Shown in pieces: positions 123-63,011 of a stretch of DNA of 64,000 bases. Origin of the DNA: Eledone cirrhosa (Eukaryota). Location: assembly GCA_964016885.1 (NCBI GenBank), contig OZ024740.1:26474001-26538000 (forward strand), written 5' to 3'. The position numbers and the translations under genes were made by a program. Positions within the stretch are counted from its first letter, which is position 1. Every line of letters begins with the position of its first letter. The notes beneath the pieces were generated by a model. It did not search any database. It was not told the origin of the DNA and saw only the letters and a list, made by a program, of their open reading frames with translations.

Positions 123-232
123 AACCTTATAACTATCCACATTGCTGACTGATGAACCTGTGGCTGTTAAACTGCACATTTCTGTGGCGAAACGAACTTA
201 ATTCGTATCAGCAAACTTATAGTTATAAGGTT
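123..232 (+). ncRNA. Type I hammerhead ribozyme with extended stem I
   Basis: ttgctga(142-148)-CTGATGA(149-155)-stem II-GAAA(189-192)-cgaa/cttaa/ttcg-TA^-tcagcaa(208-214). The distal helix aaccttataactat (123-136) is the exact reverse complement of atagttataaggtt (219-232). GUA site ends at 207. The closing pair of stem II is an A-C mismatch. Confidence 0.8.
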
Positions 233-265
233 CTGTTTACCTTTTACATACATACGTAGAATCGT

Positions 266-360
266 GACGTATCTGAGGACCTTGCGATTGCAGAGTCAGA
301 TTCGATCATTACCTCGATCCTGCCTCGAGCTGGTCGCCAGAGAAACGATTGTAATATGTC
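266..360 (+). ncRNA. Type I hammerhead ribozyme with long stem II and minimal stem III
   Basis: gacgtat-CTGAGGA(273-279)-[cttgcgatt...ggtcgccag stem II]-GAAA(342-345)-c-gatt-g-TA^-atatgtc. Stem I is 7 bp with one G-U. The stem II closing pair is a C-A mismatch. Confidence 0.7.
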
Positions 361-494
361 TAATAAATCTTATTCGTCGCACCACTGATTCTCCGTGTCT
401 TATGTCATATCATACACTGCTCTGTAAGAGTGCTCAAACGGCCTACCGCTTACGGACGCTTTAGGCATCCCACACCAATTATATATATATATAT

Positions 495-740
495 CACCTT
501 GACCGACCAGTCTGTCGGGCGTCAATCGGCGCCGCTGGTCACATGTCGTGCTGTTTTAGCTATAAGATAACCCCATCGCACTGGCTGGACGGGCAGACTG
601 TTACTCATTTCTACAGCTGAGTAAACTGGAGCAACGTAAAATAAAGTGTCTTTCTCAAGAAAACAACACATCCCCCGGTCCGAGAGTCGAACCCAGATCT
701 TTGGTTATCCAGACCACTGTGCTACCATTACACCAACACA
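495..740 (-). mobile_element. tRNA-derived SINE with CORE-like central domain
   Basis: Minus strand has A box tggtgtaatgg and B box ggttcgactc, then cttgagaaagacactttattttacgttgctccagtttactcagctg, which is shared with the copy at 41400-41742. Confidence 0.75.
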
Positions 741-58009: not shown

Positions 58010-58175
58010 AGGATCTAGGCCAGCGATTTAGGAGGAGGAGAAAGTCGATTAATTCGACCCCAGTGCGTGACTGGTACTTTACTTTATCGACTTCATAAGG
58101 ATGAAAGGCAAAGTTAACCTCGGCGGGATTTGAACTCTATGCTGCAAAGCATGACGTCCGACGCTCTACCGTTCT
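58010..58175 (-). mobile_element. Nin-like SINE with internal deletion
   Basis: Family match. Confidence 0.85.
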
Positions 58176-58184
58176 ATAAATACA

Positions 58185-61100
58185 CACACAAACAACTGAA
58201 ACCGCAGACACCGCACTCACAACACCAACAAAACCAGCAACACCATAGTCACGCAAACAAAGAATACCGCACCAATACAACAAAGAAACCCCACCAACAA
58301 TGGAGGTCGAATCACCCGACTTTCAAGAAGAGCCTGAGAGGTAAGTAAACCTTTCCTCTCTCTTTTAGCCTGTATACATGGCCATATTAAGAGTAGAAAG
58401 TTTAAATATTCCAGGCCTGGGGTCTCCCTGGAAGCAGGGTCACCTGCTCAATGAACTCAGGTCTCTAGAAATGGATGTAATTGTCATCAGCGAGACCATC
58501 ATTTCCAACACGCACGCTCTAGACCCCATGTTCGATGACTATCATATCTTCGCATCTGTTAGTCGGCCGCGAATGGGAGGTGGGGTGGCAGTGCTGTTTA
58601 GGAAAGGCCTTGATCTCGAAGTAAGGTCGATCTTCCGGAACCCGTACGGTAAGTTGGTGGTACTGGACGTGAACAATAGCGAAGATGGTGCCTTTCAACT
58701 AGTGGCCGTCTACGCTCCTATCGGGGCCGGACATCTTTAGGCGTCTGGAAGCCTCTCTGGATACGTTTCGCCCTTTACTGTTAGCGGATGATTGGAACAG
58801 CATCTTAGGCGTACGCAAGGATTCTGTCGGAAGAACAGGCTGTGAAAAAGCATCAAGTACCTGATCAGCCAGTTCCAACTGTCTGACAGATACCGACTAG
58901 ATATCCCTGATGCACCAGTGTGGACCTGGACCAACCACATAGGGTCATCTAGATCGTATATAGACAGGATATTCATTAAGAAAATAGATAGAAATAATGT
59001 AGACTGCCCACGTTTTAAAACGGTCGCATATTCAGATCACAAGTTTGTGATCTGAATGGTCGACGAGGATAAGACGCATAGGTTAGTACTTGGTTGTTGG
59101 AAACTCAACACGTTTCCGGGTCAACAATTTAGTTAAGCAAAGTTCACAGGGATTCTCATCAACAACAGATGGTGGGGCGCTCTCAAAAGAGAGATTAGAG
59201 TAATTTTGATAGAGTTTAACAAAGAAGTAGCGTTAGAGAAAAATAGAAAGGAAGGGAACCTGGTATATAAGTTAAATGGTGCTATTTGTAGTGGCATTGC
59301 AACTGACGTGCTAGCAGCGAGAATGGCATTAGACCATTTCTTCAATGCGAAACACGAAGGTCGCATTGTCAGAGCTAAGGCACATGCTCTGAGAAACGAG
59401 GGAACCAAAGGTGTTCGAAGGGCCCGCGTGGCAGAGGCTCAGCGTCGTAATAAAACCATAATTCGGTATTTGACGGACCGAGACGGACACGAGCTGAACG
59501 ATTTCAGGCGGATGTGTGAGGCTTTTCGCCACTCTTTTGCTCGGTTGGGGGGGGGGGGGGGGGGGGGGGTCAGAGACAGTAGCGGACTTCAGTCCATACC
59601 TTGACGGCTTGCCGCGCCTCTTGGCGGCCGACGCTGAGCACTGCATAAGGCCGATAACTTCAGACTTGTTCTCCGATTTTCTCGAAGCGCTCTATTGCAA
59701 CTGGCAACAGAACGGGAGTATTCCCGGTTCTGTGAGCCGGGGCGTAATGACGCTGATAAGGAAAGACGAGTGCAAGAGGGACACATTAGATAATTTCAGG
59801 CCCATAGCTCTGCTCAACACAGAGTTTAAGATTTTAGCCAATGTGTTAGCGAAGAGGTTGGCACTTGTCGAAGATTTGGTTGGGGAGGCGCAAACTTGCG
59901 CAATCCCGACCAGGTTCATACACGACAACCTGCACCTCTTGCGATACATCATAGAGAGGGTAGGGTGTAAACCAGGTTTCGGTGGGGCTCTGGTCTATGT
60001 AGATCAATCGAAAGTATTCGATAGGGTCGACCATCTGCACCTGGAGGCTGTCCTCAAAGCAGCTGATTTCGGCCCCGGATCATAAGCAGGATCGCTACAA
60101 TGCACAACGGCATCTGCTCGGCGGTCAAAGTAAATGGCCATCTCTCGCAACTATTTCAGATCTCCCGATCGGTCCTTTAAGGGTGCCCTCTGTCCTTCCT
60201 TTTGAACGTATTGACTCTCGAGCCATTACTGCGGAAGCTGGAGCTGTTGCATGGCATCCCGCTCGAAGCGGGACGTGGAAAAACGTGTGGACTTATGCGG
60301 ACGACATCACCGTGATGGTGTCCGACAGCTCGGAAATCGAGATGGTCGGCTCCTTAATGGAGGAATATGAAAGTTTGACGGGAGCGTAACTTAACCGGAA
60401 AAGTCGGTGGGCTTGCAACTCGGCAGCCGAAGAGGCAAGTCCATACCGTCCAACAGCGTCTTTGGACGCTGGACGGACGGATCAGTAAAGTTGCTCGGGG
60501 TTTGTTTCAGACCAGTCCTCCAGGTAGATAAGAATTGGGAGGATTTGACGAGAAAGGTAGCGAGTCTCACCCAGGTATGGCCTGCGCGGAAGCTATCACT
60601 GAAAGGACGGGCGGAGGTGACGAATGCGTACATCACGTCGTCCGTCAGCTACTACCGCCTAACCGTCGTACCTTCCCCCCGTCCGCACATCACCAAGCTG
60701 GTACAGCTCCTCTTCAAATTATTTGGAGGGGACAGGTTCCGTTGGTGAGGCGGTCCATCTGCTGCCAGCACCCCCTACGTGGAGGGATGGACATGTCGTG
60801 GCTAATGATGCGCAGATATGCACTCAGGCTGTGGCATCGTCAGATATTCAGTCTAAACGACAACCATGTGTGGTCGCCGTTTCTCAGACGGTCCTTTCCG
60901 CAGCTCGTCTCTTTGAGCAGCAGTCCTTGGTCAAGAAGAGACCTAGACTGAGTGACTGACGTCTGGAATGTTGCTAGGCACTCATTGCCCTCTACCAGCC
61001 GGGCAATGCAATCAGTAGATGCTCCACTCTCGAGTTCTGTCGAGGATTAGTGGTGCGGAAGTGCAACGACGCACTCGTAGAGGCTCTGAGCCTCGACGAA

Positions 61101-61900
61101 GTCGAACTAAGTAGTCTGTTCCGGAGGACTTTCGAGCCGGGGACGATGGACAATTTCCAGAAATTCCTCACTTGGCAGTGCTATGAGGGGGGGGGGGGGG
61201 GGGGTCACTGCCGGTTCGAGATAAACTCTACAGGCACGGAAGTGCTGTCAGACGGACCTGCCCGAGATGCGCGCAGAGCGTAGAAACCGTTCTTTACGCA
61301 CTGATCCAGTGTCCGTGCATTAATGACTTGTGGAGTTATGTCGAACAGCTGTTGTCACGTGTAGAACGGATCCGGCTATCAGCCGAGGTCATAGTGAAGT
61401 TCGACCCACAGCCTTCTTTGGATAGGAAGGGCAGACTATTTTCCTCTGCCTGGTGGCAGTAGTGGTTGTATGATGGACCATGTTGAATGGACTGAGACAG
61501 ACACTTTTCTCTTCGGCCAATACCCATAAACCTTTTCAAATTCTACTTGGAAAGGAAGGTGAGGGTGGAGAGAGAAGTGCTGCCCCTCCAGTACATTTGC
61601 TGAAAGGTGGGTGAATGTGGCGAGAATGGCTCGTGTGAGTGGGCCTCGTCTCATCATGCGCCTTTGGGCTGTTTAATTTGAGGAGGAGAAGGGGTGCCTT
61701 TCTATGGTGCCTTCGATGCGTCGGGTAGTTCAGGATTGGTGGGGTACCTGGGTCAACCCTGGGTGTTTATCGCCCCTATTTGGAAATTTTCATCGTTGTA
61801 GTTTCTTGTTTATTGTTAGTTTTTCTATTTTTAATCGATTTTTATGTAACCCCCATCACTGTCCCCGTCTATTGTATTGGTCCCTATATGTCAGCCTAGA
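58185..61900 (+). mobile_element. Decayed Tx1/L1-like LINE: ORF1 tail plus broken ORF2 (APE endonuclease, RT, C-terminal zinc finger)
   Basis: SLNIPGL...DVIVISET...GGVAVLF (58378-58740), SDH motif near 59030-59040, NFRPIALLNTEFKILA and DQSKVFDRV (59516-60085), YADDI (60183-60389), KLLGV...RKLSLKGR (60407-60748). Many stops and frameshifts. Confidence 0.93.
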
Positions 61901-63011
61901 TTTTACAATACAAATATTCTTACACACCCAGAAATTTCATAACATTCTTGAAATAAACATTATCGGTGAAACACTACAAGATCACATCACACAAATTGGA
62001 ATCTCCTGCTCTAAAGTAAGTACATACTTTTCAAAAACAAGTGGCTCACCAGAATAGAGGTTGTCCCTTTAAACTACTAGAAGTACAAGGCACTTCCACT
62101 GATAAGATGCCAATTCTTTGAAGTTTTATGCTCCCTTGATACATATTTATTTTATTGGTTGGTTGTATAAGGAGCAACGTATAAATAAATTAGTAAGTTG
62201 AAAGACTCAATAAGTCACGCAGTCCTTGAAGCAGATGCACTGTTTTACGATCTTGAACCAAGAATTCTAACTACTAGTCAAACTATTTTCACTAGACCGG
62301 TCAAGAAAAATTGCTGCAAGGGGCTACAAAATCCGCTGAGAAGACAATATTTTGTAAATTATTTTGCAAGTTTTGTGAATAAAGTGCTTAAATCAGACTG
62401 TTTATATTTTATTGGTTCATAATTCATTTTAAGTTACAGACATAGTATATGGCCTTTGGCAGTCTGAAAAAGAAATAAGTTGTTTAAAAGTTCTGCGAGT
62501 ATAGAAATATATGTTGATTTGTGTTTTAGATATTTTCGTTGGCCTGGAGGGAATGTAAAAAGAAAAATAAGTATTTTGTATGGAATTCCTATATACCAAT
62601 CGACTTTTAAATTTATTATTGCTTGTGTTATTTAGCCCCTGGTCATTCCTAATCGAACATATGTATATTCAAAAGCATTCCAACTGTGACTACCTCTAAA
62701 GGTAAATAAACTAAATGAAACTCCGTCAGTTTCGTCGATGACTCGTCGATCAGCCTAACACTGTACTCATGAAATTAACATTTAATTCGCTAAATATTCG
62801 ACAGATATGCTTAATTCTCGAATAGATTATACATTATACATTATGTGGTAAAGTTGACCTTTTTACTTCTAGGTGCAGTACTTCTTGTATTGGTACAGAC
62901 CTTCTTATATTGGGAAATGATATGATCTATTATAACATTTAAATACGATCCCTCAGCATAGCTATATACCCAAACCCATGACAATAAAAGGGAAATAATG
63001 TAAATGTAAGA

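What the first reader, a model, noticed from the sequence alone, without database searches (positions are those of the whole stretch)
123..62752. Window-wide density of hammerheads from at least five unrelated families
Seen: near-complete HHR motifs at 123, 266, 1029, 7439, 7923, 8407, 9609, 40079, 40398, 41950, 42980, 43299 and 46433, plus halves or relics near 4635, 40622, 44079, 45901, 47950 and 62716. Most lie next to (TA)n tracts and inside inverted or direct repeats. Known: Penelope-like elements carry HHRs in their pLTRs and leave inverted and tandem remnants. Inference: this genome hosts a very large and diverse HHR-retroelement population that targets TA tracts. Any transcript crossing this region would meet self-cleavage sites on both strands.
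Basis: partly seen in the sequence, partly recalled or inferred. Interest (0 to 1): 0.75.

Follow-up and report, generated by a model that had tools for sequence, protein, structure and literature searches.

The report
Genome crowded with Penelope hammerhead ribozymes
The window holds about twenty intact or damaged hammerhead motifs (predicted self-cutting RNAs), most likely the leftover ends of Penelope-type jumping genes that land in TA repeats, a known pairing; what stands out is that the whole genome is estimated to carry 200,000-400,000 of them, one thriving family with a core change reported to weaken cutting.

Summary
The motifs are real. A type I hammerhead descriptor finds 8 perfect-core hits in the window against 0.02 in shuffles. 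At least nine unrelated families occur; the seven counted have 53-10,227 exact copies genome-wide. Two families were traced to Penelope-like elements (PLEs): a Hydra-type and a Neptune-type. A third is a 484-bp tandem retrozyme. (TA)n lies downstream of the ribozyme far more often than chance (51 of 62 versus 17).

Corrections: six passing hits sit in one inverted duplication; the roughly 20 motifs come from about 13 insertions; hits are clustered; 45901 is unsupported. The window is ordinary for this genome (P=0.31). A 780-kb sample implies about 215,000 strict to 320,000 perfect-core hammerheads genome-wide, above the largest count in the papers read (axolotl, 120,000).

The Hydra-type family keeps a U4C core in 3,644 of 3,669 copies, with a covarying palindromic stem III. 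'Any transcript meets cleavage sites' is overstated: most motifs probably need dimers, and mirror-image pairs are predicted to mask each other. No RNA evidence was obtained. This scan already reported the same picture on other DNA of this genome. Known kind, unusual scale.

The parts
144..212 (+). Family A type I hammerhead: intact core, A10.1-C11.1 mismatch, 5-bp stem III hairpin. Bases 1-130 are the antisense 3' end of the same element.
   Evidence: (53 exact copies of the 3' half)
268..358 (+). Family E hammerhead: intact core, long mismatched stem II, near-palindromic stem III
   Evidence: relatives in L093, L112, L120, L041
1037..1076 (-). Family G hammerhead: intact core, extra base after A9, 2-bp stem I; related to H in its 3' half
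   Evidence: (7 hits in 600 kb)
1206..1420 (.).
   Evidence: relative L080 carries a fuller motif
1900..4760 (+). Heavily decayed PLE (RT relic 3896-4120; start approximate), ending in a U3-A8-type hammerhead relic at 4631-4669 just before (AT)n 4767-4954
   Evidence: (43 matches)
7362..8487 (-). Family B: 484-bp tandem retrozyme, 2.3 units. Hammerheads at 7439-7522 and 7923-8006 are complete; 8407-8485 lacks the 5' strand of stem I. The 3' end abuts (AT)n 7280-7366.
   Evidence: 1,111 exact copies of the 3' half; arrays of 9 and of 10+2 units, 99.9% identical
8937..9801 (.). Family H two-armed insertion: 5'-truncated motif on minus (9007-9081) and a G8A-decayed motif on plus (9609-9651)
   Evidence: 10,227 exact copies of the intact form
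39496..43975 (.). Inverted duplication of about 1.7 kb of flanking DNA (39496-41216 mirrored at 42212-43975; core 1,224 bp 99.3% identical) that doubles families C and D
40079..40445 (.). Family C head-to-head pair of complete hammerheads (40079-40126 minus, 40398-40445 plus); mirrored at 42980-43027 minus and 43299-43346 plus
   Evidence: (133 exact copies)
40607..40745 (.). Family D fold-back pair (complete motif 40626-40680 minus, U-U at 10.1-11.1; partner core at 40679 plus); mirrored at 42680-42818
   Evidence: (579 exact copies)
41907..42173 (.). Family F two-armed remnant of a Hydra-type PLE in (TA)n. The minus arm (99% to L056) carries the U4C hammerhead 41950-41996 and stops at the short end. 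The plus arm (42116-42173) carries the long end.
44062..44118 (-). Family J damaged hammerhead: GAAA box lost into a TA run; the family's own stem III is a TA palindrome
46389..46904 (-). Family F 5'-truncated copy of a second subfamily (96% to L051) with the U4C hammerhead 46433-46479
47887..48164 (.). Family K fold-back pair, the 3' end of a Neptune-type PLE; U3-A8 covariant core (47984 minus, 48068 plus; both slightly decayed)
   Evidence: (6,065 exact copies of the intact form)

Best explanation
The motifs are type I hammerhead folds near the 3' ends of about 13 retroelement insertions, two families traced to Penelope-like elements and the rest, including a 484-bp tandem retrozyme, likely Penelope ends or passengers, which were likely reverse-transcribed into cut (TA)n tracts, often from both DNA ends so that mirror-image pairs with outward-facing ribozymes result. 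In the active parent elements the ribozyme likely trims tandem transcripts as a dimer through its palindromic stem III. The scattered 5'-truncated copies in the window are mostly by-products, predicted to cut poorly. SHOWN: motif anatomy, excess over shuffles, copy numbers, PLE ORFs for F and K, the 3' TA bias, divergent geometry, and two fixed ends in F. INFERRED: target-primed copying from both ends, a PLE mobiliser for families A-E, G, H and J, dimer cleavage, circular RNA. UNTESTED: transcription and cleavage.
For: Family F motifs lie in 1.0-kb direct repeats flanking an open 832-codon ORF (L056). It has RWR, DKT, YRDD, a CxCx5C linker, a GIY-YIG-like motif without the CC of CCHH, and CxxC/CxH. 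These are the Hydra diagnostics of PMC8557442 section 11. Family K flanks a 770-codon frame with Pfam RVT_1 and GIY-YIG, a CX4CxxC linker and CCHH: Neptune type. (TA)5 lies within 200 nt downstream of 51 of 62 de-duplicated perfect-core motifs, versus 24 upstream and 17 (max 27) at random positions. Opposite-strand neighbours of one family are divergent in 13 of 16 cases. In 10 of 10 F pairs with both ends in view, one arm ends 38-76 nt and the other 176-222 nt past the motif; the window's 41.9-kb copy shows both ends. Two F copies co-fold as a double hammerhead with an intermolecular stem III. F subfamilies 68-74% alike in the flanks keep the 45-nt motif 96-98% alike, and stem III changes CAGCTG to CAATTG while staying palindromic. 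PLE-like ORF remnants occur in 14 of 78 random stretches.
Against: No autonomous partner was found for 8 of the 10 named families. Clade calls rest on motifs, not on a tree, and Pfam gave the F ORF no RT or GIY-YIG hit. The two-end pattern is clear only in F; it holds in 2 of 3 B pairs, is mixed in C and could not be measured in K. The subfamily conservation figure is biased because loci were picked by the motif pattern. Single-strand folding reproduces the full hammerhead poorly for several families. C and B copies did not co-fold as clean dimers. F carries both U4C and an A-G mismatch at 10.1-11.1, either of which could cripple catalysis.
Confidence: 0.85

Rival explanations
1. The motifs are conserved for a role other than cutting, e.g. 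an RNA signal bound by the PLE protein or marking where reverse transcription starts; cleavage is vestigial, at least in family F.
For: 3,644 of 3,669 F copies carry C4 and only 25 the canonical U4, yet F is young, with open ORFs and arms over 99% identical. U4C considerably lowers activity in vitro (PMC3088659 passage). 40 of 109 sampled motifs mismatch at 10.1-11.1. Naiads thrive without canonical hammerheads (PMC8557442 passages).
Against: The same passage says U4C keeps enough activity in vivo for viroid infectivity. K shows the compensatory U3-A8 pair in 100 of 100 listed copies. All sampled triplets are NUH by construction, but 66 of 109 are GUA or AUA. The F stem III palindrome covaries.
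Confidence: 0.2
2. The motifs are active monomeric ribozymes that cut host transcripts on both strands and so shape gene expression.
For: Families A and C have a 4-5-bp stem III with a loop, and C folds stems I and III unaided. The genome-wide number is large.
Against: Most motifs are dimer-type. Mirror pairs fold into hairpins of -93 to -309 kcal/mol that pair both cores. Several window copies are decayed. No host gene was identified in the window; the 4 of 13 ORFs with Pfam hits are all RT.
Confidence: 0.1
3. The short palindromic elements are MITEs or fold-back artefacts, and the motifs are chance or inflated by assembly error.
For: D and K copies are near-perfect palindromes, and one duplication doubles four motifs.
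Against: Shuffles give about 0. The same ends continue into PLE ORFs. Reversed control patterns find 0 in 3 Gb. The excess recurs in 49 of 78 distant stretches.
Confidence: 0.02

Closest known systems
Minimal/variant type I hammerheads in the pLTRs of metazoan PLEs (Cervera and de la Pena 2014, PMC4209133; parts 1-2 of 4 read)
   Same: Type I topology, short or palindromic stem III, extra base after A9, many families per genome, mostly solitary truncated copies, opposite-strand pairs 100-700 bp apart, U3-A8 variant in a PLE.
   Different: Counts there are about 2,000-9,000 per genome against an estimated 2-4 x 10^5 here. G10.1-C11.1 is highly conserved there, but only 22 of 109 sampled motifs here start stem II with G and end with C. 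No family-wide U4C core appears in the parts read.
Hydra clade of EN+ PLEs (Craig et al. 2021, PMC8557442; section 11, passages, supplement rows incl. Hydra-1_Obim)
   Same: C-terminal endonuclease, RW(K/R), DKT, CxCx5C linker, no CCHH, CxxC/CxH, hammerhead, (TA)n target, tandem and inverted insertions with a one-sided tail.
   Different: Family F has a period of about 4.2 kb with a 1-kb pLTR, against generally under 3 kb. Its two ends lie about 165 nt apart rather than a 30-40-bp tail. Its core is U4C. Named homologues are distant (32% Solemya, 39% Argonauta).
Neptune-type PLEs (same paper; passages)
   Same: Family K ORF has GxKF, DKG, RT, CX4CxxC linker and CCHH GIY-YIG; it inserts in (TA)n.
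   Different: U3-A8 core in a family of over 6,000 exact copies; no tree built.
Animal non-LTR retrozymes (PMC7229834 passages; bioRxiv 10.64898/2026.07.22.740005 parts 1-2 of 5)
   Same: Family B: tandem units without a long ORF in the arrays examined, 38% GC, one type I hammerhead per unit, near-identical multimers.
   Different: The 484-bp unit with a 53-nt stem II insert is longer than the typical 150-450 bp. Arrays are often two-armed and end in (TA)n. Circular RNA not shown.

Membership tests
Type I hammerhead ribozyme | CUGANGA and GAAA boxes, NUH site, three stems in type I order | tested here: met
   8 perfect-core hits in the window (families B, C, D) versus 0.02 in shuffles. F and K carry variant cores (U4C, U3-A8), both listed as natural variants in PMC3088659.
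Type I hammerhead ribozyme | Match to an Rfam hammerhead model at gathering score | tested here: not met
   No hit; none among the 150 of 225 E-value rows shown. This lowers membership in the Rfam families, not the fold.
Type I hammerhead ribozyme | Self-cleavage | not testable with these tools
   Needs an in vitro assay or RNA ends.
Hydra-clade PLE (family F) | Single RT + C-terminal GIY-YIG ORF between pLTRs | tested here: met
   832-codon open frame between 1,002-bp direct repeats. The domains were read by motif; Pfam found neither.
Hydra-clade PLE (family F) | RWK, DKT, CxCx5C linker, no CCHH, CxxC and CxH | tested here: met
   RWR (K to R), DKT, CNCRANRTC, one Cys between the GIY- and YIG-like motifs, CNLC, CQH.
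Hydra-clade PLE (family F) | (TA)n insertion | tested here: met
   44 of 48 contexts reach a (TA)5 within 230 nt.
Hydra-clade PLE (family F) | Phylogenetic placement in the clade | not tested
   No reference PLE set was held.
Neptune-type PLE (family K) | RT, CX2-5CxxC linker, CCHH GIY-YIG at the C-terminus | tested here: met
   Pfam RVT_1 and GIY-YIG above cutoff; motifs read. Not separated from Nematis by a tree.
Non-LTR retrozyme (family B) | Non-coding tandem unit with a complete type I hammerhead in at least two consecutive units | tested here: met
   Two complete units in the window; arrays of 9 and 10+2 units elsewhere with no ORF of 150 codons.
Non-LTR retrozyme (family B) | Accumulates as circular RNA | not testable with these tools
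   Needs RNA from this organism.
PLE origin of families A, C, D, E, G, H, J | Link to a PLE ORF | not tested
   No full-length copies were fetched; only geometry and TA ends support it.
Naiad or EN-minus PLE (1900-4760 relic) | N-terminal endonuclease or no endonuclease | tested here: inconclusive
   The hammerhead relic follows about 0.5 kb after the RT match, leaving little room for a C-terminal endonuclease, but the frame is too decayed to read.

The most novel reading that the evidence does not exclude
This genome carries the largest hammerhead load yet described (2-4 x 10^5, about one per 10 kb). It is tolerated because PLE ribozymes here have been tuned down: dimer-only stem III, mismatched 10.1-11.1, a family-wide U4C core, and insertion from both DNA ends that packs each ribozyme with its own antisense copy. 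Cutting is thus confined to the element's own tandem transcripts, and family F is a natural, active test system for both attenuation and two-ended priming.
Probability: 0.35. Interest if true: 0.7.

Novelty: new member of a known kind. Interest (0 to 1): 0.48.

Why it matters
The pairing of hammerheads with PLEs and retrozymes, and the TA targeting of Hydra- and Neptune-type elements, are published. What this adds is scale and test material. The estimated 215,000-320,000 core-intact motifs exceed the largest count in the papers read (axolotl, up to 120,000 in a 28-Gb genome). Young open-ORF elements sit beside their truncated products, and one successful family carries a core change reported to weaken catalysis. 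That makes two open questions testable: what the PLE hammerhead is for, and how inverted PLE insertions form. It also allows a well-powered test of whether hosts purge sense-strand ribozymes from introns. The motifs were invisible to Rfam in this window.

Tried and rejected
Rfam found no hammerhead; its miRNA rows are microsatellite noise. The repeat finder on the whole window was swamped by simple repeats. A DNA search with family F returned nothing, not even itself, so patterns were used. An RNA-editing scar (a lead from note e1-8803865) was tested as rare A>G versus T>C changes in seven families: 66 versus 54, no clear signal. The K end analysis failed because of an internal TA run. 45901 was rejected as unsupported and 62716 left open. 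The 53857 hit is treated as chance. The idea that the window is a hot spot was rejected (P=0.31). The reading of the inverted repeat around 123 as a long retrozyme stem was rejected: the left arm is the antisense 3' end of the same element. The host taxon could not be fixed from protein relatives. One ORF (24909-25451) was not scanned; 13 of 70 ORFs were scanned, the rest being mostly simple repeats. Lunse et al. (PMC5785218) was not held, so its variant list could not be compared. Literature searches. None listed a hammerhead census for a cephalopod or a count above 120,000, but subscription papers are missing, and higher estimates for the Schistosoma Sm-alpha repeat (recalled, not checked) could match this density. 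The preprint's supplements were not seen.
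Full report
1. Observation. Rfam at gathering score finds only a tRNA-like SINE head at 678-737. I wrote a type I descriptor: CUGANGA, stem II direct or after one extra base or one mismatch, GAAA, stem III, UH, stem I of at least 4 bp. It finds 8 perfect-core hits (7517-, 8001-, 40120-, 40404+, 40672-, 42753+, 43021-, 43305+) against 0.017 in 60 shuffles of 500-nt blocks. With one core change allowed it finds 12 against 0.45. Three more (123, 266, 1029) fail on a stem but match multi-copy families, and 8407 is a truncated unit. 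Of six relics, 40622 is complete, 44079, 47950 and 4635 are supported, 62716 is open and 45901 is unsupported.

2. Independence and spread. An inverted duplication (1,224 bp at 99.3% plus mirrored outer pieces) doubles families C and D. B is a 484-bp tandem, and C, D, H, K and the 1206-1420 element are head-to-head pairs. The roughly 20 motifs therefore come from about 13 insertions. They lie at 0.1-1.4, 4.6, 7.4-9.7 and 40-48 kb; the rest of the window is LINE-like RT remnants (4 of 13 ORFs scanned hit RVT_1) and simple repeats. Pairwise comparison of ten families showed true similarity only between G and H; the A-E hit is an overlap of neighbouring stretches. At least nine families are thus unrelated.

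3. Copy numbers. Exact-pattern counts in the 3.0-Gb genome, all with 0 for the reversed control: H 10,227, K 6,065, F 3,669, B 1,111 (3' half), D 579, C 133, A 53 (3' half). These are lower bounds. E, G and J were not counted genome-wide.

4. Genome sample. I took 78 stretches of 10 kb at round-number positions on 26 large contigs, not weighted by length. They gave 109 hits, 84 with a perfect core, in 49 of 78 stretches; ten shuffles gave 0-9 and 0-1. Extrapolated: 320,000 perfect-core motifs (bootstrap 230,000-430,000), 420,000 with variants (310,000-540,000, a few per cent chance), and about 215,000 on the strictest class (56 hits with perfect core and paired stem II base). The hits form 34 clusters, 21 with two or more members; a few are low-complexity chance hits. 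The window's 11 hits compare with 9.0 expected (P=0.31). The window is ordinary; the genome is the finding.

5. What the elements are. F motifs sit in 1.0-kb direct repeats around an open 832-codon frame found in L055, L056 and L058. Its motifs match the Hydra diagnostics in section 11 of PMC8557442, although Pfam recognises neither domain. That paper's supplement lists a (TA)n-targeting Hydra family from Octopus bimaculoides. The window's F copies are 99% and 96% identical to such elements. K motifs flank a frame with RVT_1 and GIY-YIG, a CX4CxxC linker and CCHH: Neptune type. B forms 99.9%-identical arrays of 9 and 10+2 units with no ORF of 150 codons and fits the non-LTR retrozyme definition in bioRxiv 10.64898/2026.07.22.740005 (parts 1-2 read). 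The 4635 relic ends a decayed PLE. No ORF was tied to A, C, D, E, G, H or J.

6. Targeting and geometry. (TA)5 lies within 200 nt downstream of 51 of 62 de-duplicated perfect-core motifs, against 24 upstream and 17 at random. The first sample gave 65 of 75 downstream, 29 upstream and 23 expected for (TA)4. The bias is 3'-sided, as expected if the RNA's 3' region is primed at a TA nick. Opposite-strand neighbours are divergent in 13 of 16 cases. In F, 10 of 10 measurable pairs have one short and one long end; an eleventh had one end out of view. B shows this in 2 of 3 pairs, C is mixed and K could not be measured. Inverted 5'-truncated copies with a one-sided tail are described for PLEs (PMC8557442 passages). 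An anole PLE cuts and extends both strands and starts at two internal sites (PMC11167929 passages). I took the two-ends test from earlier notes of this scan.

7. Core variants. F has C4 in 3,644 of 3,669 copies and an A-G mismatch at 10.1-11.1. Among 30 loci, stem III is CAGCTG (14), CAATTG (10) or CAGTTG (6); flanks of the first two groups are 68-70% alike and the motif 96% (loci were chosen by the motif). Two F copies co-fold as a double hammerhead. PMC3088659 (section 8 and passages) reports U3-A8 as active, U-U at 10.1-11.1 as the best tolerated mismatch, and U4C as much weaker in vitro yet sufficient for a viroid. K is U3-A8 in 100 of 100 listed copies, a variant known from a Schistosoma PLE (PMC4209133).

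8. Effect on transcripts. 82 of 109 sampled motifs have a stem III segment of 10 nt or less and 48 a palindromic one. Tested metazoan PLE hammerheads did not cleave as monomers and were weak as dimers (PMC4209133). The C, D and K pairs fold into long hairpins that pair both cores on either strand. A and C, with a real stem III, are the best monomer candidates. No host gene was identified in the window.

9. Mechanism. Shown: anatomy, enrichment, copy numbers, PLE links for F and K, TA bias, geometry. Inferred (about 0.85 together): PLE endonuclease nicks (TA)n, the RT copies the 3' region of element or passenger RNA, often from both ends, and truncates early, leaving ribozyme-bearing stubs that supply new TA tracts for later insertions. 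Inferred and untested: dimer cleavage of tandem transcripts, circles for B.

10. Novelty. The class, the clades, the TA target and both core variants are in print. Counts in the papers read are about 2,000-9,000 minimal motifs, about 5,000 in mussel and up to 120,000 in axolotl (PMC7229834 passages). Six searches listed no larger census, and a 2026 Octopus vulgaris repeat annotation has no occurrence of 'ribozyme' or 'hammerhead' (PMC13282606). The host is probably an octopod according to earlier notes; my only related call gave distant mollusc names, so I leave it unconfirmed. This scan has reported the same picture repeatedly in this genome, with estimates of 145,000-200,000 that agree with my strict figure; no note matched the F stretch. 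Also read: passages of PMC6765202 and PMC6155905 (no counts). Verdict: real, known kind, unusual scale; interest 0.48.

Noticed in passing
window 39496-41216 / 42212-43975; L072:51-5407; L075:1-3307: Kilobase-scale inverted duplications of mixed flanking DNA, often bounded by TA tracts. The window's begins at the TA tract next to the F insertion; 2 of 60 random stretches hold one with arms over 1 kb. Could be TA-hairpin fold-back repair, a PLE by-product or an assembly artefact.
   Followed up: partly
L039:1444, L068:5942, L071:2239 and others: A family with a U4A core (CAGAAGA), U-U at 10.1-11.1 and a long stem III: 7 hits in 6 of 78 stretches. Not in the window.
   Followed up: no
L035:3650-4580, L083:8630-9683, L039:5268-6069: Other tandem retrozymes with 310-311-bp and 467-bp periods, some two-armed; earlier notes describe such families.
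   Followed up: no
window 604-737 and 41401-41734: tRNA-headed SINE on the minus strand, very abundant (120 BLAST hits among held loci); it also ends in (TA)n.
   Followed up: no
window 1657-1845, 2876-3064, 6168-6346, 16336-16437, 19107-19289, 48649-49006, 56699-56808, 57991-58171: A second short interspersed repeat with about ten copies in the window.
   Followed up: no
window 21523-24948 and 13268-17206 (minus), 59137-60085 (plus): A 1,141-codon open RT frame with a weak zf-RVT hit, and two broken RT elements; LINE-like, not classified.
   Followed up: no
window 26221-28558, 29744-35887, 49150-56686: Very long simple-repeat blocks: 18-bp unit x130, GGT/GAT-rich, and complementary ACC/TAG-rich arrays of several kb.
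   Followed up: no
window 841-1024 and 25702-26106: Two further palindromic elements without a detected hammerhead; the first is multi-copy and TA-flanked.
   Followed up: partly
family A, window 156 and 188: A10.1 faces C, G or U at 11.1 among the 53 copies. An A-C pair is a favoured ADAR site (recalled), so editing could restore a canonical-like pair; speculation.
   Followed up: no
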